Below are positions 1-25,954 of a stretch of 53,618 nt of DNA, piece after piece; position 1 is the stretch's first letter, and each line of letters starts with the position of its first letter. The stretch lies in NCBI GenBank assembly GCA_025354605.1, contig JANXMN010000276.1, positions 1 to 53,618 on the forward strand, in the 5' to 3' direction. The translations under genes and the position numbers were made by a program. Below the pieces are notes generated by a model. That model made no database searches. It worked only from the letters and a program-made list of their open reading frames with translations, and was not told where the DNA came from. Source of the stretch: Hymenobacter sp. (GTDB lineage: Bacteria; Bacteroidota; Bacteroidia; Cytophagales; Hymenobacteraceae).

Positions 1-103
1 GTACCCGGTAGGGCTCGCCCCCGCCCGTCGTTGAACGAGTGGTTCGGGTATCGTTCGCGGGGCGGGCGGGGGCAAGCCCTACCGGGTACGACCCCGCCCC
101 TAC
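1..103. repeat. GTAG-type REP doublet (palindrome), in frame inside the kinase ORF
   Basis: 1-27 and 63-89 are inverted repeats with 1 mismatch. The right end is CCCCGCCCCTAC. A related arm lies at 25930-25954. Confidence 0.8.
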
Positions 104-2392
104 TTCTTCGGCCGGGAAGCGCAGGGTGAAAGCCGCGCCTTGTCCGGGCCCGCTGGCCAGGGTGAGGGTGCCGCCCAGCAGCGTAGCCAGCTCCCGGCTT
201 AGGGCCAGGCCCAGGCCGGTGCCGCCCTGGGCCTGGTTCTGGGGGCTCTGGTAAAACCGTTCGAATACCCGCTCGTGCTCGGCCGGCGCGATGCCGGGGC
301 CGGTGTCGCGCACGGTGAGGGCATAGTAGCCGTCCGCGGCGGGCAGGGCAGCCGTGAGGGTCACCGTGCCGCCGGCGGGCGTGTGGTTCAGGGCATTGCT
401 GAGCAGGTTGGTCAGAATTTGTTCCACCTTGTCGCCATCCACCAGCAGGTACGGTGCGTCGGATAGCGGGCCAGGGCCGTGCAGCGTCAAGCCGCGCGCG
501 GCGGCCAGCGGGGCAAACTGGGCCACCAGCCGGTGCAGAAACGGGGCCACGGCCGTGGGCACGGGCTGCACCGGCAGCCGGCCGGCCTCCAGCCGCGTCA
601 GGTCCAGAATGCGGTTCACCAACTCGTTCAGGCGGCCGGCCTGGCGGTGGGCCAGGGCCACGGGGCCGCGCACGGCGGCGGGCAGCGGCCGGGCAAGGTC
701 GTTCAGCAAGGTTTCGAGCGGGGCCAGCACCAGGGTCAGCGGGGTGCGCAGCTCGTGGCTGGCATTGGCGAAAAACTGATTTTTGGCCGCATCCAGCTCG
801 CCCAGGCGCAGGGCCTGGGCTTCGAGCTGCTGCTGCTGGGCGGCGAGTAAGGCGTTGTCGCGCCGTTGGCGGCGGGTGGTACGCCAGAGCAGCACGGCCA
901 GTCCGCCCAACCCCGCTAAGCTCGCCAGCAGCCCGCCCAGGGCCGTGCGCTGCTGCCGGGCCTGCGCCGTGGCCTGCCGTTCGGTGCGGCGCAGGCGGGC
1001 CAGGCGGCTTTGCTGCGTCTGGGCGGCTTGGTCGAACTCGTAGCGGGCCACGCGCGTGGGTACCTGCGCGGCTTCCAGCGTATCGGCTAGGGCCAGGGTA
1101 GCCAGGGCGTAGGTGGCCGCCTGTGCGGGCTGGCCCTGCTGCTGCCAGCTGGCGGCCATCCCGCGCAGGTAGGCCAGGGTGAGAGCCGCCTGGCGTTCCT
1201 GCCGGGCCTGGTGCAGCGCCGTTTGCCAGGCGTGCAGGGCCTGCGCCCCCTGGCCGGTGGCCGCGTAGTAGCGGGCCCAACAGGCGTGCAGCTCACAGTA
1301 GCCGGCATACGAGCGAAGCGGCAAATGCAGGGAGTCGACCAGATGCTGGCCAGCTACGAGCAGGGGCCGGGCAGCGGCCGGGCGGCCCAGCGCCAGCAGG
1401 ATGGCACTTTCTTGCACCAGGCCCAACGCGCGGTCGTAAGGCGCGACGGTAGCCGGGGGGCGATGGGGACGCAGGGCGCGGGCATTGCAGCGCCGGGCCT
1501 CGGCGTAGCGCCCCAGCTGGAAGTAAGCGCGGGCCAGGGCGTGGTTCATGGCTGCGTAATAGGTTTCCGGCGCGAAGCCGGGCAGCGTCAGAGCTTTCCG
1601 GAGGTAAGGCAGAGCCCGGGCGTGGTTGCCCCATTCGGTGTACATGATGCCGATGGCTCCCAGCTCGTTGTAGTACCGAAAAGTCGAGCAGGTGCGAAAC
1701 AGCTCTGCCGCCCGCATCCGCTGGCTGATGGCCTGGTTGTAGTCGCCCAATGCCCCATAGTAGTTGCCCAGCATGCGGTAACAAATGGCGCTATTCATCA
1801 CGCTGCCGTGCTGCTCGTGAGCCAGCCGTTGCGTGAAGAACGTCCGGTTGGCTTCCGGCTGCTTCAGCTCTGTATTGACCTCCTTAATCCATTCCAGCAG
1901 GTATGGCTGCGGCCCTCCGCCCAGGGCGTCGTAGGCCCACAGGGCCGCGAGCAGGGTGTCGCGCATGGCCAGCAGATTTGGAACCGGCCGGAGCGCCAGC
2001 TCGTCGAAGGCCACTACCAGGCGCAGCGGTACCCGCTCGGGGTAGTGCAGCCGGGTGGCCAGCCGCAGGGCTTCGCGGTGCTCGCCCAGCAGGTCGGGCA
2101 GCGCCTCCCGCGACAGGTCCGTCAGGTGGAAGAGCTGGGTGAGGGTTTGCAGGCGCAGGGTGTCGGCGTGCTGGCCGGCCAGTACCCGGCGCAGCGAGTC
2201 GTTGGGGGCATCCCAGTAGCGGCGGTCGAAGCGCACGGTCCGCAGCCGGCGCTGGTACCCGGCCAGCTGCAACGGGCTGGGCTGGGCCCGGGCCGTCGCG
2301 AGCGGCCCCAGCAGCACGAACAGAAATAACAGCCACTTTCCCTGGGTTAGCCCGGGAAGCAGCCAGTGGAACAGCTCAGCGAAACAAGGCAT
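1..2392 (-). CDS. TPR-type sensor histidine kinase (probably hybrid), 3' end beyond the window
   Basis: Manually translated from ATG at 2392 (MPCFAELFHW...hydrophobic N-terminus). The same frame gives the H-box FFANASHELRTPL (~740-778) and HATPase FERFYQ...GGTGLGLALSRELA. The frame is open at base 1, which would explain its absence from the ORF track. The middle was only spot-checked for stops. Confidence 0.85.
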   Translation of the reverse strand, partial: MPCFAELFHWLLPGLTQGKWLLFLFVLLGPLATARAQPSPLQLAGYQRRLRTVRFDRRYWDAPNDSLRRVLAGQHADTLRLQTLTQLFHLTDLSREALPDLLGEHREALRLATRLHYPERVPLRLVVAFDELALRPVPNLLAMRDTLLAALWAYDALGGGPQPYLLEWIKEVNTELKQPEANRTFFTQRLAHEQHGSVMNSAICYRMLGNYYGALGDYNQAISQRMRAAELFRTCSTFRYYNELGAIGIMYTEWGNHARALPYLRKALTLPGFAPETYYAAMNHALARAYFQLGRYAEARRCNARALRPHRPPATVAPYDRALGLVQESAILLALGRPAAARPLLVAGQHLVDSLHLPLRSYAGYCELHACWARYYAATGQGAQALHAWQTALHQARQERQAALTLAYLRGMAASWQQQGQPAQAATYALATLALADTLEAAQVPTRVARYEFDQAAQTQQSRLARLRRTERQATAQARQQRTALGGLLASLAGLGGLAVLLWRTTRRQRRDNALLAAQQQQLEAQALRLGELDAAKNQFFANASHELRTPLTLVLAPLETLLNDLARPLPAAVRGPVALAHRQAGRLNELVNRILDLTRLEAGRLPVQPVPTAVAPFLHRLVAQFAPLAAARGLTLHGPGPLSDAPYLLVDGDKVEQILTNLLSNALNHTPAGGTVTLTAALPAADGYYALTVRDTGPGIAPAEHERVFERFYQSPQNQAQGGTGLGLALSRELATLLGGTLTLASGPGQGAAFTLRFPAEEVGAGSYPVGLAPARPANDTRTTRSTTGGGEPYRV

Positions 2393-2635
2393 AGCAGCTT
2401 CAGAACGAGCACAGTGCCCGGAGATAGATGGCCAAAAGTACGTGCTTCTAATAAGCTCTACTACCATGCACATGCACATGGTTGCGGGCGGCTACTGCAA
2501 AACCAAAGCATGCAGACCTTGCTATTCAGCCCCAAACGCCCCAACTAAAGCGGCATCAGGTCGGGTTTCTGACCATAACAGCCCATCCGGTAACAACCTT
2601 GGCCAGGCCAGGGTGCGGTTCGGCTGGGCGAGCGG

Positions 2636-3046
2636 GTGCTCTCCGATGAAAAGGATACGTGGACGGTGAGCGCTGCCGCCTTGTTTTTGTTGCGCAGCTT
2701 GGCAGTCGAACACTCGGTTGGAGACCAACTCTTGCCCTGCTGCTGCGGCTTCCTCATGTGGCCCGATGCCACGAGCAATAACGTGTTGGTGTTGGGCTGC
2801 CCGAATAGCGTCGACTGGTGGGTCGAGCACCGGGGCCAGCAGGTGCAGCTCACGGCTCCCGACGGCGAAACGGTCCTGCTTTATTTCGACGCGTATCGGG
2901 CACGAGTGCTCGCGTTTGCAGACGAATTTGAAGCTTTTTACCAGCGCAGCGCGCCTAAAAAAGTGCCCGCAGATGCCCCGGATGCGGAAGGATACGAACT
3001 CCTCTGGAACGAATGGCACGGCCGCCGAAATCAGTGGCCCCGCTGA
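2636..3046 (+). CDS. Hypothetical Cys-motif protein, probably 5'-truncated
   Basis: Protein-like ORF (WTVSAAALFLLRSL...LLPCCCG...GCPNSVDW). The frame is closed by TAA at 2591 and only a GTG start is available. Confidence 0.5.
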   Translation: MLSDEKDTWTVSAAALFLLRSLAVEHSVGDQLLPCCCGFLMWPDATSNNVLVLGCPNSVDWWVEHRGQQVQLTAPDGETVLLYFDAYRARVLAFADEFEAFYQRSAPKKVPADAPDAEGYELLWNEWHGRRNQWPR

Positions 3047-3231
3047 CCACCGTTTAAGTAGTCGCCAACACATACAGCACCTGCATCGCAATGGGCAACA
3101 CCCGCTCGGCTTGGGCTTGGGTCGCCGGCCAGTCCCAATTCGCGGATGCGCCCGAGCGCAAGTCTGCCAGGGCGGCGTGGGCTCGGTCAGTAAGCGCGTC
3201 GAGCCTGTAAACTGTTCACCCGCCGCATATT

Positions 3232-4218
3232 TCAGATGCCACCCGTGGTGAAACCAAGCACTGCTGCTTCCTCACCTTCGCCCAATTGGAAGCTTGCTTC
3301 CGCCGCCGCCATTTCGTAGTGCACCGCCACATCGGTTTCAAAGGCTACGAAGTATTCGCACAGCAGGGCCAGCGCCTTTGCGGGCCAAGCTCCGCTCAGG
3401 TAGGCTTCGAGTTCGGCAACGCTTAACCCCTGCAGGCTTACCTCCAGGGCGGGTAGGGTTTCCTGGTAGTCGCCGCCCAGCACCAGGTCGCGGCCCAAGG
3501 ACAGACTCCCAAGGGAAGTACCGCCGGTTGCTGAAGCGGTTGCCCCGGCTGGCGCCAGGGCGTGCCGCAGCGGGGCAACCACGCGCAGTTGCACGGCCTG
3601 GCCCAGCACATTCTCGAAGCATTGCTGGGTGCGTGGCAAATCGCCCACAATGCCGTGCGCCAGGGGTAGCAGGTAGAGCAGGTTGGTGAGGGGGCCGGCG
3701 GGCAGGCCCGCGTCGGCAATGCCCCAGAACCGGGCTACCGCTTCGTTGTACCAGCGGGCCGACAGGTTGGAGAAGTAGCGCCGCTCTTCCTGCTCGATGC
3801 GCACCCGGCAGCGGAAAAACTCCTGCTCGAAGGGCAGAAAAAACAAGCGGGTCGCCTTTTCTTTCCGCCGCTGCGTGCGAATGTCTTCAACCATGGCCCG
3901 CACGCCGGAAGGTGCGCTGGGCGTGCCGCTGCCTGGCTGATGAAATACCTGCTGCGGGATGGCATCGTAAAGGCCTTCGCGGTGCAGTTCGAGCACGGTG
4001 CGCACCACGGGCCGATGGGCGCGCTGGAACTCCTCGTCGCGCACGGTGCCCAAGTCGCGCCGATAGCGGCGGGCAAACAGGCCCACGGGCTGCACCAGGA
4101 AATCGTCGAACGCGTAGCCGTAGTCCAGCAGCTCGGCCAGGATTACTTCGAGGCGCAAGTCGAAGGGCTGGCGGCGCAAATTAGCCAGCAGCGCGTGTAC
4201 GGAAATGGGTTGGGGCAT
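3232..4218 (-). CDS. tssG: Type VI secretion baseplate subunit TssG (Bacteroidota subtype iii)
   Basis: LHREGLYDAIPQQVFH, TRLFFLPFEQEFF, LPLAHGIVGD motifs; adjacent to tssN/K/O; ATG at 4218 chosen as start. Confidence 0.85.
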   Translation of the reverse strand: MPQPISVHALLANLRRQPFDLRLEVILAELLDYGYAFDDFLVQPVGLFARRYRRDLGTVRDEEFQRAHRPVVRTVLELHREGLYDAIPQQVFHQPGSGTPSAPSGVRAMVEDIRTQRRKEKATRLFFLPFEQEFFRCRVRIEQEERRYFSNLSARWYNEAVARFWGIADAGLPAGPLTNLLYLLPLAHGIVGDLPRTQQCFENVLGQAVQLRVVAPLRHALAPAGATASATGGTSLGSLSLGRDLVLGGDYQETLPALEVSLQGLSVAELEAYLSGAWPAKALALLCEYFVAFETDVAVHYEMAAAEASFQLGEGEEAAVLGFTTGGI

Positions 4219-4418
4219 GGAAAAGCGGGGAAAGCGGCCAGGGGCGAAGATAAGAGAGGCGGGCTCTACGGGCGGGGCCGGGGGTTGGGAACCGTCGTTA
4301 TAGTGGTACTTCGCGGAGCATAAATTGTCGCTGACGCAAAATTTGCCGTACTTTGTTCGCTTGCCCGGAATGAAGCGGGGCGAGCGCACCTGCTTTCCCC
4401 GCACTGCTTCCTTTTCGA

Positions 4419-5273
4419 ATGCTTCCTAATCCTACCTCTCAGGCCCGTGGGGCCGCCAACAGCACCTTATCCAATCTTAGCTCGCGGGTGCAGGGCAGTA
4501 AGGTTTTTCTGAGCGTGCTGCTGTACGTGCTGGGCACAGTGCTGGCCTTCGGGCTGCTGGGGTTTGCGGCCGTGCGCAGCCCGTGGGGCTTTCCACTCAC
4601 GCTGGCGCTGCTGATGCAGGCACTTGGGCTGCTGGGCTGGCTCTACGCCGCGCAGCTGCCCAAGTGGCTCAGCTGGCTCAATCCGGAAAGCCGGGGGCAG
4701 TCGGTGCTGGCCCTGGCCCTCACGGCCGTGCTTGGGGCCGGGGCCATCGTGGCGCTGCGCTGGGTGCCCTGGGCCAAAAACTGCTTGCCCCCGGCGGGCT
4801 TTGTATCGGCTGTGCTGCCGTTTTTGCTGCCGTACTTCTTCTGGGAGTCGTACCGCGCCTGGATGGCCATCCCGTACCGGCGCTATAAGCTTTGGCGCTA
4901 CAATCCACTGGCTCCCAGCCCCGACCTCTCGCGCATGGACCTCAATCACTTCATGGTGGTGCACTTCTGGATGACCCGTCGGCTTGGGGAGGCGCTCTAC
5001 CATGACTTTTCCTCGAAAGCGCCCTATCAGATGCGGTTGAACGACTTGTTCGCCATCTTTCTCTCGGATTACAACAAGCTGAAACCCGACCAGGCCATTC
5101 AGTATCTCGACAACGAAGGGCAGTCCTTTGGCTGGCTGTTTTACGCCAAGCGCCCCTGGTGGCGCCGGCGCATGTACTACGACCCCGATTTTACCTTCCA
5201 GGACAACTTCCTGCGGCAGGGCAACATCATCGTGGCCGAACGGGTGCCGGCTGACCCGAGCACAACTCACTAG
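4419..5273 (+). CDS. tssN: TssN family T6SSiii membrane protein
   Basis: Several N-terminal TM helices followed by IPYRRYKLW, KAPYQMRLNDLF..F..DYN, YYDPDFTFQDN. Confidence 0.85.
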   Translation: MLPNPTSQARGAANSTLSNLSSRVQGSKVFLSVLLYVLGTVLAFGLLGFAAVRSPWGFPLTLALLMQALGLLGWLYAAQLPKWLSWLNPESRGQSVLALALTAVLGAGAIVALRWVPWAKNCLPPAGFVSAVLPFLLPYFFWESYRAWMAIPYRRYKLWRYNPLAPSPDLSRMDLNHFMVVHFWMTRRLGEALYHDFSSKAPYQMRLNDLFAIFLSDYNKLKPDQAIQYLDNEGQSFGWLFYAKRPWWRRRMYYDPDFTFQDNFLRQGNIIVAERVPADPSTTH

Positions 5274-5326
5274 CCTGCCCTCTTCTCCTGTGCCTTTCCC
5301 CTACCTTTCGCCTTTCCTTCGCGCCC

Positions 5327-6535
5327 ATGCTTCCTGAAATCACGCATTACCCGGTGAATTGGGTTGACGGGATGAAAATTGCCCGTCGCCACTTCGCCGA
5401 AGCCGACCACTTCACCACCGACCACCTGCGCGACGCCACCGCACTGCACCTGCGGCCCGATTACTACGGCTTGCTGCCCGCGACCAACGAGCTGGGCAGC
5501 CCCTCGTTCGAGCTGCTGCTGAACGTGGACGCGCAAAACGAGGTACAAGCCCGCCTGACGCAGTGCCGCGCCGTGACGGCCGGCGGCGTTCGCATAGAAA
5601 TTACGGCCACGAGCGCGCCGCTGGCCGCCCGCACCAACCTGGTGCAGTTGCTGAACACGTTTGGGCTACCCGCTACCGAGGGGCTGCGTTTCAGCGTAGT
5701 GCTCACCGTTAATCCGTTTGAGCGCGTGCCAACCGGCACGCCCTCGCCCGACGAGCTGCCGCCCCGGCATCCGTACACCCGCCCGGCTTATGCGCTCAGC
5801 TTCGTGCCGACGCAGCAGCTGACCGGCACGCTGGGCGTGGCGTTTGCCCTGCCGGTGGGCGAGCTGCTGCTCACCGATGGGGAGTTGCGGCCGGTGGCCC
5901 ACTTCATTCCGCCCAGCACGGCGCTGGCCAGCCATCCGGCCCTGCTGCAGGCGCTGCATCAGCTCGATTTCCAATTGACCGAGCTGGAGACCGACGCGTT
6001 CAAAATTATTCACAAAGTGAAGCTGCGCACCGACAAGCGCAGCCACTTGGCCGACCTCGTGCGCGAGCTGGCTGAACGCACCGCGTTTGCCCTGGCCCAG
6101 CAGCTCACCACGCTGCGGCTGATGGCGGCGGCCCAGCCCCCGATTTACCTGCTGGATGCCCTGCTGCGGGTAGCCAAACAAATCAAAACTTCGCTCGACA
6201 GCCTCACCGAAGCCGAGCGTGAAGAGTTGCTCAAGTATTTCGAGCAATGGTCCGAAACACTGCCCGCCACGCTGCTCGCGGCGCTGCAAACGGCCGTTAC
6301 GCTCAGCTACAATCACCAACTGGTGCACGAGCACTTGCGCCACCAGCAGTACCTGTGGCAGCTCATAGGCACCATTTTCCGGCAGCTCAGCCAACTCGAA
6401 TACATCGGCAAGAACAAAGAGGGGTGGCAGACCTTTATCAATGAAAATCCGGTGGCCAAGTCGGCCGCGGCGGGTGTTTCTGCCACAAAAGCCACGGAAA
6501 ATGACTCCGCCCGCTGGAATCCCTTCACCACTTAA
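5327..6535 (+). CDS. tssK: TssK-like T6SSiii baseplate protein
   Basis: N-terminal PVNWVDGMKI...HF motif, PPRHPY, FIPP and YNH motifs; operon context. Confidence 0.8.
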   Translation: MLPEITHYPVNWVDGMKIARRHFAEADHFTTDHLRDATALHLRPDYYGLLPATNELGSPSFELLLNVDAQNEVQARLTQCRAVTAGGVRIEITATSAPLAARTNLVQLLNTFGLPATEGLRFSVVLTVNPFERVPTGTPSPDELPPRHPYTRPAYALSFVPTQQLTGTLGVAFALPVGELLLTDGELRPVAHFIPPSTALASHPALLQALHQLDFQLTELETDAFKIIHKVKLRTDKRSHLADLVRELAERTAFALAQQLTTLRLMAAAQPPIYLLDALLRVAKQIKTSLDSLTEAEREELLKYFEQWSETLPATLLAALQTAVTLSYNHQLVHEHLRHQQYLWQLIGTIFRQLSQLEYIGKNKEGWQTFINENPVAKSAAAGVSATKATENDSARWNPFTT

Positions 6536-6567
6536 GCGGCTGCCCCCGTATCCCATCCTCCGCTCGC

Positions 6568-7467
6568 ATGAAACCCCTTAACCAACCCGAACGCCGCACG
6601 CGCCTATGGCAGTTTTCGCTGCTTTATCTGTTGGCCTTGCTGGTGCCGCTGGTGGCCTCGTATTACCTGTTTTCGAATTCCAGCATCGCCGATGAGAATG
6701 CCCGCCTGAAAAAGGAGCTCGACCGCACCCACGAGGAGCAGGAGCGGCTGGTGACTCGATTCGACACTCTTACCCAGCATCTGCGGCGTATCGATGCCGT
6801 CGACCTGCAAATGATGGCCGAGTCGAACCCAAACGTGCGTAGCGTGCTGTTGCTCAAAAACCAGGACTACGGTAATGCTATCGCCGCGCGGCTGAGCGAG
6901 CTGCGCAACGACACCGTCCAGATGCAGATTCCGGCGCATCGGCTGGTGGCTCGGAATATCCTGCGCGACTTCGACTTTTACCGCTCCACCCGCAATACCG
7001 TCGACGTGTTGCGGCAGGATGTGGCCAGGTCCGGGGAAGGGGCCCGCGGCAGCGAGCGGCTGGCCTCCGAGCTGGCCAGCGCGAAACAGGAAGCTTCGTC
7101 TGCTAAGCAGCAGGTGGTTACCCTGCAGGCGGCCCTGGCCGCTGCTTCGGCCAGAGGTGGCGGCGGGGGGGGCGGCGGGGGCGGAGCCCCTGCTGCGGCG
7201 ACGCCCAGCAACTCTTCCAAAATCCAGATAGCCCTGCTACGCGACCAGGTAGCCTTTGCGGAGGCCGATTGCCTGCGGCAACGTGCCCTTGACCATAAAT
7301 CCCGCAGCAAGGAGCGCAAGCAGCTGCTGGAACAGTCGCGTACCGCATTCATTCAGATACTGCAGGCCCCGGCCACCGATGACCTGAAGCAAAGCATCGA
7401 ACAGACGTTAGCGCCTATCAACGTAGAGCTTGGCCGGGAGCCCCGTTTTTTTGGGTTGATTAAATAG
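6568..7467 (+). CDS. tssO: TssO-like T6SSiii protein with coiled-coil and poly-Gly extension
   Basis: MKPLNQPERRTRLWQFSLLY N-terminus, a single TM helix and a coiled coil; follows tssK. Confidence 0.65.
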   Translation: MKPLNQPERRTRLWQFSLLYLLALLVPLVASYYLFSNSSIADENARLKKELDRTHEEQERLVTRFDTLTQHLRRIDAVDLQMMAESNPNVRSVLLLKNQDYGNAIAARLSELRNDTVQMQIPAHRLVARNILRDFDFYRSTRNTVDVLRQDVARSGEGARGSERLASELASAKQEASSAKQQVVTLQAALAAASARGGGGGGGGGGAPAAATPSNSSKIQIALLRDQVAFAEADCLRQRALDHKSRSKERKQLLEQSRTAFIQILQAPATDDLKQSIEQTLAPINVELGREPRFFGLIK

Positions 7468-7584
7468 TGCGCTTGTGCAAAGTCAGCGGTCCTGAATCGA
7501 GTCGACCCAACTAGCCCCCCAAAACTTGCCGCAGGCCGTGCCGCAGGCCTGCACGTCGAGCGAATTCTAAAGAAAACCTCGCTT

Positions 7585-7652
7585 TGAGATGGTCTAGCTG
7601 AAACGGAGAGTGAGAAGTCTTAACTCCGCTGTCCATGACTGAAAAACTGAAT
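7585..7652 (+). mobile_element. Isolated left end of an IS3-family element
   Basis: TGAGATGGTCTAGCTGAAACGGA resembles the termini at 7653 and 8504. It is followed by ATGACTGAAAAACTGAAT (MTEKLN) and then cut by the next element. Confidence 0.6.
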
Positions 7653-7865
7653 TGAGATGGTCCAGCTAAGTCGGACACAATTGGGACGTGGTTTTGAATT
7701 GGGTTTCGAAGTGGTTAGGCAATTAGTAACCGAGGGTCGAGTGGCGGCGTTCAGCGTTGTAATACGCGATGTAATGGCTGATTTCGAGCCGGGATTCTTC
7801 CAGTCCGGGAAAGCTGCCGCCGTCGAGCAACTCAGCTTTGAAGCGGCTACAGAACGATTCGGCGT

Positions 7866-7883
7866 GGGTCGTACCCGGTAGGG
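7866..7883 (+). repeat. 15-bp micro-insertion with GGG duplication
   Basis: GGG TCGTACCCGGTA GGG; turns YDNAHAES into YDNA-LPGTT-HAES. Confidence 0.85.
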
Positions 7884-8167
7884 CGTTGTCGTAGCAGCTA
7901 CTGCGGCGACTCGTTCTTTGCTGGGCTCCATGACGCGCCAATAGGCCCTTGAATCGGGTAACCGTGTACTGGCTGGCTTGGTCGGAGTGCACGATGAGGC
8001 CAGCCGCAGGCCGGCACACTGCCAGCGCGCGGCGCAACGCCTCACTGCCCAAGTCTTCGGGCATTGTATTGCGTACGTCCCAGCCCCCGATTTTGCGCCA
8101 GCAGCGGTCGAACCAGGCGGTCAAGTACAGTCAGGCGCCGCCTTGGCGCGGCAAGTAGGTGATGTCG

Positions 8168-8185
8168 CCCTGCCGGGTACGACCC
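8168..8185 (-). repeat. 15-bp micro-insertion with GGG duplication
   Basis: Minus strand reads GGG TCGTACCCGGCA GGG; turns WVGDITY into WVG-RTRQG-DITY. Confidence 0.85.
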
Positions 8186-8826
8186 ACCCAGCCCCGGTTG
8201 GGGGCGGTAGGGGCTGCTTCAGGCAAGCGCGCAGGACGCGTACTTCCGGGTCCCGCGCCGCTTCTTCGCTGCCTACCTCGACCATGAGCTGCGCTTGCTG
8301 CCAGCACTAGAGCCATTGGGGGCTGATGCTCAGTTGTCGCGCGGCGGCCTGCGTGCTCCGGCTTTTCGGCACCAGAAGCAGGGCCTCGGCCTTGAAGGCC
8401 TCGTCGCATTTACGCCGTTTGTCGGGCGATGCCCCGCTGGTTTTAGTTGCCAGCACAGAAGAAATATACGTCCTGCTTCTATCCGGCCTGCCTAGACCAC
8501 CTCACACAGCATGGCACGGGGGTGAGGCGCAGGCAGAGTGGCGCTGGTAGGAAGCGGAATGACCAAGCCCTGATTGCGCACGCTGAACTTTACACGCAGA
8601 ATAAATCACAAAAGGATAAAATAATATTATTAAAAATCAATCGATTGACTGATAAGTAAGTGCTTTCCACATGCTTGAGCTCCTGAGCTTAGTAAGCACT
8701 GCGGTAGGGGAAAGAGGGACGAGCCGCCGGGAAACACTGCGGGCTACTTCTCCGTCACAAGGGAGCAATAGGACTGAAAGCCTGCTGTATACTGCATTTT
8801 ATCACCCTCATTTTCCCGTTCATCAT

Positions 8827-11052
8827 ATGAAAAAGTTGCTTACCAAACCCTGGCTGGGCGTGTGTCTCGGCTCGGCGGCGTTGGCGGGCGCGTTAGTCGT
8901 AGGCGTGCGGCCCGCGCCGCTGGAGGCTTCCAGCCACCGCGAAGCCCCGCTCATCTCCTACGACCCGCTGGCCGACAACACTGACGTATATGCCTTCCGC
9001 AGTCCGGATGACCCGAACACAGTGACCATCATTGCCGATTACATCCCGTTCCAACTGCCGCAGGGCGGTCCGGTGTACTACAACTTCGGGGAGAACGTGC
9101 GCTACGAAATCCACATCAAGAACCGGCCGTCCATCCCGAACGGGTCGCCGGCCGGCACGCCGACTTCGCCCGGGGATGACATCACTTACCGTTTCACGTT
9201 TGCGCTCACCAACCAGGACCCGACCACGCACTTCCGCATCCGCAATGCTGGGGCGGGGGTGAAGGAAAACCAAAAAGCGACCTACACCTGCGAGGTGAGT
9301 CGCGACGGTGGCGCGACGTTCACTACCATCGTGACCAACGGTGTGGTGCCGCCCTACAACGTGGGGCCCCGGGCCATTTCGGATGCCACGGTGGGCTTTG
9401 GTGCCGCTAACTATCGGCAGTTGATTACCAATTCTATTCAGACGGTGGGGGCGGGGGCGAACGCTGGCACCAAAGTCTTTTGCGGCACGGCGGACGACCC
9501 ATTCTTTGTGGATATTGGAGCGGTGGAGGACCTGGGCAATATCCGGCCCACACGGGCCCGCGACGGCTTGTACCACAAGAACGTGAACAGCATCGCCCTG
9601 CAAATCCCCATCAGCCAGCTGCAGCGCGACGGCCTGCAGGTGTCGGCGGCCACCAGCATTCTGGACCCGGCGTTCGTGATTGGGGTGTGGGCTTCGGCCA
9701 GCCGCCCGGCGCTGAAAACGCTGGTGGCCCCCGATGCTAACGGCAACACGACTGGGGCCCAGACGTACTCGGGCAACTATGTGCAGGTGTCGCGCCTGGG
9801 CATGCCCCTCACCAACGAAGTGGTGAGCAACTACGGCAACAAAGACGAGTTCAACGCGCGGACCCCGTATTCGGAGAACCGGACGTATGACGTGAACTTC
9901 ACTAACCCGGAATTGGCGCTGTACATGGCGGATAATAATCCGCAGTCCCCGACTGCGCCGAAGCCGGCTGGCCAGACGTATTTTGGTGAGGCCGTGCCGG
10001 GGTTCAGCATGCTCCGTATCCAATCCAAGTCGCTGGCCGGACGGCCCAACCTGCCAGCCACGGGGTTTGACTTCCGGAACGGCGCCCCCGGTGTGTCGGG
10101 TCTGGCCGGGTCAGCGGCGGTGGCCGGCACCGCCTTAGCCCCCATTGCCAGCGGCGGCCTGGGCGAATACTTGTTGCGCCCGGGCCAGCCCCGCTCGGTC
10201 GACCTGCTGCCCCTCTTCCACACCGGCGTGCCCAACGTGCGGCCGTTCCAACTGGCCACCGGCAAAAACGGCGACCCGCTGGCCGCTGGCAAGCCCTTCA
10301 TCAACAATTTTCTGCCGGTGGGGACGGCCACGAGCGTGGGCGGCGATATGCTGCGTCTGAACATGGCCGTGCCCGTAACGCCCCGCAACTCGGCGGAGTT
10401 TAGCTCGGAAGGCCTGCTGGCCGCTGCCAAGCTAGGCCTGACTATGGCACCCTACAACACGAATTCCAACCTGGAATTTATCCCCAACATGGACGGCTTC
10501 CCCAACGGCCGCCGCTTGGAGGACGATGCGCCCCGCATCGAACTGCAGACTGTGAGCGGCGTGGTGCTGGCCTCGTTGGGCTTGTGGTACGACGACTACA
10601 CCGCCACCGCCACCAACCCCGTGACCCCGCAGCTGAACAGCGTACTGGGCTTCACGACCGGCGTGGAGCGCAACGACACCACTATTCGCGTAGCGTGGCC
10701 GTTCCTGCAAGACCCGTGGAGTGGCACCAAGGCCCAGCCGACGGTGACGTCGCAGCGGCAGGCCACGGGCCTGGGCTTGCAGCCAGCTTTGCTGGCGGCA
10801 CAGGTTTTCCCCAACCCCGTCGTCGACCAGACCACGGTACGGTACGAACTGGCGGCCCGCGCCACGCTCACTTTCACGGTAACGGACATTGCGGGGCGCA
10901 AGGTGGCGACACTGGCAACCGAGAAGACCCAGAACCCGGGCTCCTATGACCTGACGTGGAAGCCTGCGAACAACGTGGCCCCCGGCCAGTACATTCTGGT
11001 TATCTCCTCAGGCAAAACGGTGGTGCAATCCATTCATCTGGAAAAGCACTAA
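8827..11052 (+). CDS. DUF4331 family protein with T9SS type A C-terminal sorting domain
   Basis: Signal peptide, then ASSHREAP, DNTDVYAFRSP, DDPFFVD, QVSRLGMPLTNE, GFPNGRRLEDD; C-terminal VFPNP...GQYILVI. Confidence 0.9.
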   Translation: MKKLLTKPWLGVCLGSAALAGALVVGVRPAPLEASSHREAPLISYDPLADNTDVYAFRSPDDPNTVTIIADYIPFQLPQGGPVYYNFGENVRYEIHIKNRPSIPNGSPAGTPTSPGDDITYRFTFALTNQDPTTHFRIRNAGAGVKENQKATYTCEVSRDGGATFTTIVTNGVVPPYNVGPRAISDATVGFGAANYRQLITNSIQTVGAGANAGTKVFCGTADDPFFVDIGAVEDLGNIRPTRARDGLYHKNVNSIALQIPISQLQRDGLQVSAATSILDPAFVIGVWASASRPALKTLVAPDANGNTTGAQTYSGNYVQVSRLGMPLTNEVVSNYGNKDEFNARTPYSENRTYDVNFTNPELALYMADNNPQSPTAPKPAGQTYFGEAVPGFSMLRIQSKSLAGRPNLPATGFDFRNGAPGVSGLAGSAAVAGTALAPIASGGLGEYLLRPGQPRSVDLLPLFHTGVPNVRPFQLATGKNGDPLAAGKPFINNFLPVGTATSVGGDMLRLNMAVPVTPRNSAEFSSEGLLAAAKLGLTMAPYNTNSNLEFIPNMDGFPNGRRLEDDAPRIELQTVSGVVLASLGLWYDDYTATATNPVTPQLNSVLGFTTGVERNDTTIRVAWPFLQDPWSGTKAQPTVTSQRQATGLGLQPALLAAQVFPNPVVDQTTVRYELAARATLTFTVTDIAGRKVATLATEKTQNPGSYDLTWKPANNVAPGQYILVISSGKTVVQSIHLEKH

Positions 11053-25929: not shown

Positions 25930-25954
25930 GGGCGGGGCCAAGCCCTGCCCCTAC
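25930..25954. repeat. REP arm lacking the 15-bp insert
   Basis: GGGCGGGGCCAAGCCCTGCCCCTAC aligns with 64-103 once 80-94 is removed. Confidence 0.7.

What the first reader, a model, noticed from the sequence alone, without database searches (positions are those of the whole stretch)
7866..8185. A 15-bp site-specific micro-insertion element (GGG-TCGTACCCGG[T/C]A) occurring four times, always at GGG^C
Seen: the same unit occurs at 1-13 (cut by the window edge), 80-94 (minus), 7869-7883 (plus) and 8171-8185 (minus, one substitution). Removing exactly 15 bp restores conserved IS3 transposase motifs (YDNA[LPGTT]HAES and WVG[RTRQG]DITY, in opposite orientations) and restores the REP arm at 64-103 to the empty form seen at 25930-25954. 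In the three complete copies a 12-bp core is flanked by GGG on both sides and followed by C. The unit holds two overlapping mini inverted repeats (GGGT-CGT-ACCC and TACC-C-GGTA) and its length preserves frame. Established: very small dispersed repeats that insert at fixed motifs exist in cyanobacteria. Inference: this is a non-autonomous ultra-short mobile element, or the stereotyped excision scar of a larger one, driven by an enzyme encoded elsewhere. I saw no copy in the housekeeping genes despite many GGGC sites, which suggests purging or a target bias.
Basis: partly seen in the sequence, partly recalled or inferred. Interest (0 to 1): 0.85.

Follow-up and report, generated by a model that had tools for sequence, protein, structure and literature searches.

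The report
15-base jumping DNA patch in Hymenobacter
A fixed 14-15-base piece of DNA sits as a clean insertion at GGG sites in repeats, transposons and ordinary genes of about a third of the Hymenobacter genomes searched, which makes it one of the smallest mobile-looking DNA units seen in bacteria; it likely spreads by being copied from an existing copy, by an enzyme not yet found.

Summary
The four copies are real. The unit GGG[YCGTRCCCGG(N)A]GGG has 22 exact and about 40-50 tolerant copies in this genome. It occurs in 52 of 165 genus genomes, in named cultured strains, and in 0 of 109 genomes of sister genera, so it is no artefact. Of 25 relatives' sites with a spanning homologue here, 18 have an exactly 15-bp shorter empty form, 11 outside IS3. 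'Always GGG^C' holds only for the T:A subtype, and host genes of relatives do carry copies. No driver gene was found: reverse transcriptase, IEE-like primase-polymerase, LigD polymerase and two RAYT classes fail to track it. Best reading: microhomology-primed copying from existing copies, then amplification by REPs and IS3 (0.45). Main rival: a 14-15-nt single-stranded circle moved by an HUH enzyme (0.25). It works like cyanobacterial small dispersed repeats but is shorter.

The parts
1..13 (+). Micro-element copy cut by the contig start, in a REP-A arm
77..94 (-). Full T:A/GGTA copy with both GGG repeats (15 bp inserted), at the stem-loop junction of a REP-A arm
64..103 (-). Filled REP-A arm, in inverted orientation to the arm at the contig start; this REP class flanks RAYT genes in relatives, where it is empty
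7866..7883 (+). Full T:A/GGTA copy in the YDNA-HAES motif of the IS3 transposase remnant
8168..8185 (-). Full T:A/GGCA copy in the WVG-DITY motif of the IS3 transposase remnant
   Evidence: bridged without a difference by one unitig of run X1, which may be the source
7653..8507 (-). IS3-family remnant with in-frame stops and an internal deletion of about 440 bp relative to the C170 copy
25930..25954 (-). Empty REP-A arm, for comparison
2..2479 (-). TPR sensor histidine kinase whose frame runs on through the filled REP; homologues stop aligning at about 102-111

Best explanation
A gene-less 14-15-base DNA unit, GGG[YCGTRCCCGG(N)A]GGG, has inserted at many unrelated GGG sites in one half of the genus Hymenobacter, and it likely spreads by copy-and-patch: a paused or nicked nascent strand ending in CCC would anneal to the right-hand GGG of an existing copy, copy 14-15 bases, and return to its own template through the new CCC. 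SHOWN: exact filled/empty pairs, one GGG in the empty site and two in the filled site, recurrent and serial insertion, subtypes, target bias, and strong enrichment in REP hairpins and IS3. INFERRED: the copying step; a role for the hairpin and the CC-G(N)NA-GG mini-hairpin in pausing the polymerase or protecting the displaced strand; use of host repair or replication enzymes rather than a dedicated transposase; and secondary amplification when REPs and IS3 copies multiply or convert one another. On this reading a genome needs only a seed copy, which IS3 or a REP can bring in.
For: (1) Subtype follows the base after the right GGG: T:A before C at 44 of 48 clusters, C:G before C at 3 of 15; 83/8 against 2/24 on a finer, less independent count. 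Mixed arrays mostly follow it: T,C,T then C, and C,T,C,T then C. (2) 38 target clusters outside the REP supercluster resemble the flanks of REP-borne copies more than 4000 random GGGC sites do: left run 2.26 vs 0.94, right 3.82 vs 3.10, sum p=3e-7. (3) Filling depends on family and genome. In G000: REP-A 14 of 39, REP-B 5 of 7, CCCTCT family 1 of 46, GCCCC-NNN-GGGGC REP 0 of 65. The last two families are filled in other genomes. (4) Both arms of a palindrome can carry the same rare variant (L281, L278, L337). (5) IS3 copies 68-88% alike are mosaics of filled and empty sites; at one site 4 of the 5 filled copies aligned share a changed flank base that the 2 empty copies lack, while a sixth filled copy lacks it. 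(6) 13 of 41 copies in G000 have a neighbour within 600 bp against 0.4 expected, though these are REP pairs and IS3 copies. (7) No dedicated gene: over 320 flanking regions the only strongly recurring gene family is the IS3 transposase (35 distinct sequences; the next groups have 7 or fewer). (8) Presence is patchy among close kin: 24 of 33 genomes at 78% or more on a marker protein carry it and 9 do not, against 3 of 45 below 60%.
Against: The stem covaries (148 of the 150 matches listed are T:A or C:G; G:C at two loci), and only the middle base of the second loop varies among amplified subtypes. Both loops form together only in a circle, which a circle model explains more directly. One IS3 orfA site holds 14-nt units in some copies and 15-nt units in others, so same-site conversion alone is not enough. 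The +1 rule has exceptions (T,T and C,C neighbours). The flank resemblance could be an enzyme's sequence preference, and some 'independent' sites may be diverged REPs. The model does not explain why IS3 is hit (6 of 273 GGGC sites) and DDE_Tnp_1 elements are not (0 of 242; p=0.03). No polymerase was identified; LigD Prim-Pol (0 of 5) and AEP-TOTE (0 of 165) were not found. No insertion event was observed.
Confidence: 0.45

Rival explanations
1. The unit is excised as a 14-15-nt single-stranded dumbbell circle (4-bp stem, loops CGT and GG(N)A) and rejoined at GGG in folded single-stranded targets by an HUH (RAYT or IS200-like) enzyme acting in trans; homogeneous arrays come from rolling-circle copying or slippage.
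For: The circular fold uses all bases as one stem and two loops. Three Watson-Crick stem pairs occur. The second loop fits the DNA mini-hairpin motif (PMC13037366, section 2.3). Empty targets are more hairpin-prone than random GGGC sites (n=56, GC-adjusted p=0.003). The unit resembles the GCCCC-GGA-GGGG-CGACCC REP class that flanks IS200-like RAYT genes. Arrays of 8 or more units run off contig ends.
Against: The predicted circle energy is slightly positive (+0.8 kcal/mol). No copy lies in any of 42 Y1/RAYT loci examined. One RAYT class is in 19 of 52 carriers and 33 of 113 non-carriers (p=0.37). A solitary RAYT-like gene is in 108 of 165 genomes and was not found in the two highest-copy genomes. 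The look-alike REP is in 2 of 5 high-copy and 1 of 5 unit-free genomes, and all 65 copies of it are empty in G000. RAYTs cleave at CT/CA chosen by a GTAG guide (PMC8266576, passages), not at GGG.
Confidence: 0.25
2. The unit is the fixed scar left when a larger site-specific element inserts at GGG and leaves.
For: Fixed ends and a direct repeat; serial units at one site could record repeated cycles.
Against: No long form was seen. Left-half-only copies in G000 are explained by deletion between two ACCC in a filled REP, and no matching right half was found downstream in the two followed. No recombinase or transposase other than IS3 recurs beside copies. Internal stem covariation is not expected of a scar. 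G000 is in 601 pieces, so a long form could be unassembled.
Confidence: 0.08
3. An RNA template is reverse-transcribed into nicked GGG sites, telomerase- or retron-style.
For: Unit-length additions and tandem arrays fit templated addition.
Against: RVT_1 was not found in G000 (90% complete) or in 4 of 5 high-copy genomes, one of them a single contig. No Rfam family reaches its threshold in window 1-9000. No conserved template locus was seen. The GGA, GGTA and GGCA loops fit the DNA motif, and of these only GGGA and GGAA fit GNRA.
Confidence: 0.07
4. IS3 transposition itself makes or captures the unit, for example during copy-out replication or through cis-acting transposase.
For: About 80-fold enrichment in IS3 in G000; at least five sites in one IS3 subfamily; IS3 is the only strongly recurring neighbour; single copies in distant genomes lie in IS3 (L003, L030).
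Against: Most copies are in REPs and host genes far from IS3. The unit does not resemble the IS ends. The IEE-type family AEP-TOTE was found in 0 of 165 genomes.
Confidence: 0.08
5. A few ancient insertions were only carried along by REP and IS3 amplification; the unit is not itself mobile.
For: 139 of 244 unique copies fall in one supercluster of REP-like contexts.
Against: 56 other target clusters exist, and 11 have an exactly 15-bp shorter homologue outside IS3. The same codon is filled in three IS3 clades. Near-identical units sit in flanks 12-30% diverged.
Confidence: 0.04

Closest known systems
Small dispersed repeats (SDR1-8, especially SDR5) of Nostocaceae (Elhai et al. 2008; paper not held; SDR5 seen only through passages of PMC4390886 and PMC13756078; the rest recalled)
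   Same: Very short, gene-less, dispersed; precise insertion at a fixed motif (SDR5, 21 nt, between the third and fourth base of HIP1); function unknown; compensatory structure, nesting and residence in other repeats (recalled).
   Different: 14-15 nt rather than 21-27 (range recalled); Bacteroidota rather than cyanobacteria; target GGG with the GGG repeated; DNA mini-hairpin loop; subtype tied to the next base; IS3 hot-spots.
REP / REPIN elements with RAYT (TnpA-REP) (PMC3116915, PMC8266576, PMC6006769; passages read)
   Same: Short hairpin DNA, gene-less, multi-copy; GYAG is present; the unit lives inside REPs and resembles one REP class.
   Different: GYAG lies 3' of the hairpin, not 5'; no copy flanks a RAYT gene; it inserts into coding DNA in all six frames; a 3-bp repeat bounds it.
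DNA mini-hairpins d(GCGNAGC)/d(GCGNNAGC) (PMC13037366; passages and section 2.3 read)
   Same: The 3' part CC-GG(N)A-GG fits the motif; CC-GG stems and GNA triloops are reported as acceptable and exonuclease-resistant.
   Different: Known as structural motifs in replication origins and promoters, not as mobile units; the GGTA and GGCA loops are not among the sequences measured in that table.
MITEs and IS200/IS605-derived palindrome elements (recalled)
   Same: Gene-less, repeated, bounded by a short direct repeat (MITEs) or built on hairpins (IS200-derived).
   Different: No terminal inverted repeats, no parent IS found, and far shorter than these elements.

Membership tests
Small dispersed repeats (SDR) | Dispersed multi-copy unit under about 30 nt with empty homologous sites | tested here: met
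Small dispersed repeats (SDR) | Length 21-27 nt (recalled) | tested here: not met
   14-15 nt
Small dispersed repeats (SDR) | Conserved fold with compensatory changes (recalled) | tested here: met
   T:A, C:G and G:C at one stem position; these are few lineages, so descent is not excluded
Small dispersed repeats (SDR) | Precise insertion at a fixed motif | tested here: met
   GGG in all; GGG^C for the T:A subtype; the motif is not HIP1
Small dispersed repeats (SDR) | Sequence or structure shared with SDR1-8 | not testable with these tools
   paper not held
REP/REPIN-RAYT | GTAG-type tetranucleotide 5' of a palindrome | tested here: not met
   GYAG is 3' of the hairpin in a single copy; it is 5' only in tandem or circular form (sequence)
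REP/REPIN-RAYT | Copies flank a cognate RAYT gene | tested here: not met
   0 of 42 Y1 loci
REP/REPIN-RAYT | Cleavage by TnpA-REP | not testable with these tools
   needs biochemistry
MITE | Terminal inverted repeats matching an autonomous IS | tested here: not met
   the core ends are not inverted repeats and do not match the IS3 ends
MITE | Target duplication | tested here: met
   one GGG in empty sites, two in filled sites; could equally be a shared core or microhomology
Retroelement or RT-templated repeat | Reverse transcriptase in carriers | tested here: not met
   RVT_1 in 1 of 6 carriers searched; divergent RTs not excluded
IEE-assisted copy-out products | IEE-like AEP gene (PF22548 used as a recalled proxy) | tested here: not met
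   0 of 165

The most novel reading that the evidence does not exclude
A 14-15-nucleotide single-stranded DNA dumbbell or mini-hairpin is itself the replicating, transposing unit. It would be the smallest mobile genetic element known, needing no gene of its own, parasitising REPs and IS3, travelling between species inside them, and adding five-residue patches to proteins.
Probability: 0.3. Interest if true: 0.92.

Novelty: new variant of a known kind. Interest (0 to 1): 0.74.

Why it matters
How DNA far too short to hold transposase binding sites still inserts precisely has been open since the cyanobacterial small dispersed repeats were described. This unit is shorter, has marked subtypes and predictable targets, and occurs in named cultured strains, while some close relatives lack it. 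That makes the question directly testable by seeding, trapping and gene-content comparison. It also inserts in-frame five-residue patches into proteins, breaks IS3 transposases at conserved motifs, and seeds 15-bp minisatellites.

Tried and rejected
Adapter or assembly artefact: rejected; the unit is in 52 of 165 genus genomes, some in 1-4 contigs, and in named isolates. Fold-back synthesis, read into three half copies at first: withdrawn; deletion between two ACCC explains them (note 2). Reverse transcriptase, AEP-TOTE (48), LigD Prim-Pol (81), a solitary RAYT-like gene (90), the REP-A RAYT class (92, 96) and the look-alike REP class (99, 100) do not track the unit. Y2_Tnp (88) and DpnI (106): nothing rang in the controls either, so those searches show nothing. 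DUF559: two genes in G000, no copy beside them (89, 96). Pairing of the unit with the right flank beyond +1: not supported (+2 G 14, +3 A 7, +4 C 16 of 45). A DUF4331 gene as kinship marker was useless because of paralogues; a single protein's identity was used instead, which is a rough proxy. Phage contigs: 6 scattered matches, the five distinct contexts unlike the Hymenobacter sites. Rfam: nothing at threshold. Runs: no RNA holder listed; four DNA runs of one study, contigs only, so no polymorphism within a strain could be judged; two related IS3 pieces in run X4 have 15 gaps. Sister units with the same design were not found in G000. Literature: 10 searches listed no description of this unit; the library lacks most subscription papers, including Elhai 2008, whose text and supplements may bear on the comparison. 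Strand bias relative to replication was not tested.

Full report
Observation. The four copies are as described. The three whole ones read GGG-TCGTACCCGG[T/C]A-GGG-C, against 0.16 matches expected in the window. Two interrupt conserved motifs of an IS3 transposase remnant at 7653-8507, and two sit in inverted REP arms at the end of a sensor kinase gene. The genome (G000; 5.5 Mb, 601 contigs, 63% GC) has 22 exact copies, 39 within one mismatch of the degenerate consensus (reversed control 0) and 61 within two (control 11).

Range. GGGYCGTRCCCGG(N)AGGG occurs in 52 of 165 genomes of the genus, with up to 55 copies, and in 0 of 109 genomes of seven other genera of the family (tallies include two unpublished genomes, G150 and G151, on which no sequence claim rests). 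The genus name for the window is inferred from these records. With one protein's identity as a rough kinship measure, 24 of 33 close genomes carry the unit and 9 do not, against 3 of 45 distant ones. An artefact is excluded.

It is an insertion, many times over. I fetched flanks for part of the hits only: 244 unique copies, which fell into 57 target clusters, one a supercluster of 139 REP-like contexts. Of 53 other clusters tested, 25 had a homologue in G000 spanning the site: 18 had one exactly 15 bp shorter (7 in IS3, 11 elsewhere), 2 were 30 bp shorter, 1 was filled and 4 differed otherwise. Host genes hit include a HAD hydrolase, RadC (ahead of its Pfam domains), a BlaR1-type peptidase and a fatty-acid hydroxylase. 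All six frames are used among 36 coding-like contexts. The one frame that makes a stop occurs with TAG four times in IS3 and once at a gene end, and with CAG in an open host gene. The YDNA codon is filled in three well-supported IS3 clades (41-47% protein identity between the window's clade and the others), with empty copies interleaved (28 rows, a few duplicates and short rows among them). Eight IS3 copies 68-88% alike form a mosaic over five sites.

Anatomy. The unit is GGG-Y-CGT-R-CCC-GG(N)A, followed by the second GGG. Y and R covary: 22 T:A and 5 C:G of 31 exact-frame copies in G000, and 148 of the 150 matches listed for the genus. G:C occurs at two loci, but mismatched G:A and G:G copies are commoner than that and read as decay. 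The second loop is GGTA, GGCA, GGGA, GGAA or GGA; the searches fixed its first two bases and last base, so their conservation is not tested without bias. The 14-nt GGA form is mobile in its own right: 35 copies in 15 of 165 genomes, in three repeat classes and in IS3. CC-GG(N)A-GG fits the DNA mini-hairpin motif, which is exonuclease-resistant and much weaker as RNA (PMC13037366, section 2.3). The central CCC can pair with either GGG. Joined as a circle the unit folds into one stem with both loops, at +0.8 kcal/mol in a model that the same paper says cannot predict mini-hairpins. Folding of the copies in context is not better than shuffles.

Targets. GGG is invariant. The T:A subtype is followed by C at 44 of 48 clusters (background 52%), the C:G subtype at 3 of 15. 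Empty targets outside the REP supercluster are modestly hairpin-prone and resemble the flanks of REP-borne copies on both sides. In G000, IS3 regions hold 6 copies per 273 GGGC sites, about 80 times the rate elsewhere; DDE_Tnp_1 elements hold 0 per 242. Repeat families are filled very unevenly, and differently in different genomes. REP-A copies beside their own RAYT genes are empty, so the unit is an intruder in them. Arrays of three or more units occur in 8 of 165 genomes: mixed ones such as T,C,T and C,T,C,T, which imply serial events, and homogeneous ones of 8 or more units that run off contig ends.

Driver. None was found. RVT_1 is in 1 of 6 carriers, AEP-TOTE in 0 of 165, LigD Prim-Pol in 0 of 5. 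No copy lies in 42 Y1/RAYT loci, and two RAYT-like groups do not track the unit. The IS3 transposase is the only gene family that recurs strongly beside copies.

Mechanism. I favour microhomology-primed copying from an existing copy (0.45). It explains the repeated GGG, the link between subtype and next base, the flank resemblance, family-wise filling, matched palindrome arms, and patchy presence with no companion gene. It explains the structural conservation and the IS3 bias less well. A single-stranded circle handled by an HUH enzyme (0.25) explains the structure best, but no enzyme fits. Scar, RNA-templated and IS3-made readings are weaker. All mechanistic steps are inference; no insertion event was seen.

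Relation to known systems. It works like the cyanobacterial small dispersed repeats; SDR5 is a 21-nt module inserted precisely in HIP1, function unknown (passages of PMC4390886 and PMC13756078). The original paper was not held, and what I say of SDR1-8 beyond that is recalled. It fails the REP, MITE and retroelement tests. Ten literature searches listed no description of it (listings and abstracts only, except the passages cited). Earlier notes of this scan describe 19-39-nt inserts of similar habit in other genomes (unchecked); none matched this sequence.

Verdict. A real, well-supported, apparently undescribed 14-15-bp insertion unit, a new variant of the SDR kind and shorter than those compared here, with its mechanism open and testable in cultured strains. 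Interest 0.74.

Noticed in passing
G000, whole genome: GATC is almost purged: 74 sites in 5.5 Mb, about 1% of expectation. By a CCGATC count, 11 of 13 unit carriers and 6 of 24 non-carriers in the genus sample are purged, and some other Cytophagales too; probably a shared-ancestry effect. A DpnI search was uninformative.
   Followed up: partly
G000 C31, C43, C104, C226 and others; L012, L230, L232: A REP class GCCCC-NNN-GGGG-CGACCC (65 copies) that flanks IS200-like RAYT genes resembles the unit: its hairpin matches the unit's 3' part and the reverse complement of its tail matches the 5' part. It may be the unit's origin.
   Followed up: partly
G000:C301:4874-5416 (L354:2375-2917): A solitary RAYT-like gene with no flanking REPs is conserved as a single copy in 108 of 165 genus genomes and has no Pfam hit; it looks domesticated.
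   Followed up: partly
G000 REP-A family, e.g. window 64-103: Filled REP-A arms are often perfect palindromes (9 of 14) while empty ones rarely are (1 of 25; p=8e-5), possibly collapsed REP doublets.
   Followed up: partly
G000, whole genome: Other abundant repeats: GTCATGCTGAGC/GAAGCATCT palindromes (over 150 copies) and heptamer arrays of ATGAGGA and TTATGAA type, like those known from cyanobacteria (recalled).
   Followed up: no
L387-L393 (metagenome contigs): Tandem arrays of similar 15-mers (up to 9 or more units) also occur in GATC-rich, high-GC contigs that do not look like Hymenobacter; relation unknown. Two GATC-free contigs carry ordinary arrays.
   Followed up: no
L292 (G004:C128), L309 (G004:C139): Arrays of 7-8 or more units extend the frames of a fatty-acid hydroxylase and a small multidrug transporter gene with ALPGT or GPAGH repeats.
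   Followed up: no
window 3232-7467: Four genes that look like a Bacteroidota type VI secretion cluster (recalled resemblance); the two scanned had no Pfam hit.
   Followed up: no
G000:C31:32772-33116 and C383:7274-7618: Two Y1/RAYT genes carry single in-frame stops while their REPs remain.
   Followed up: no
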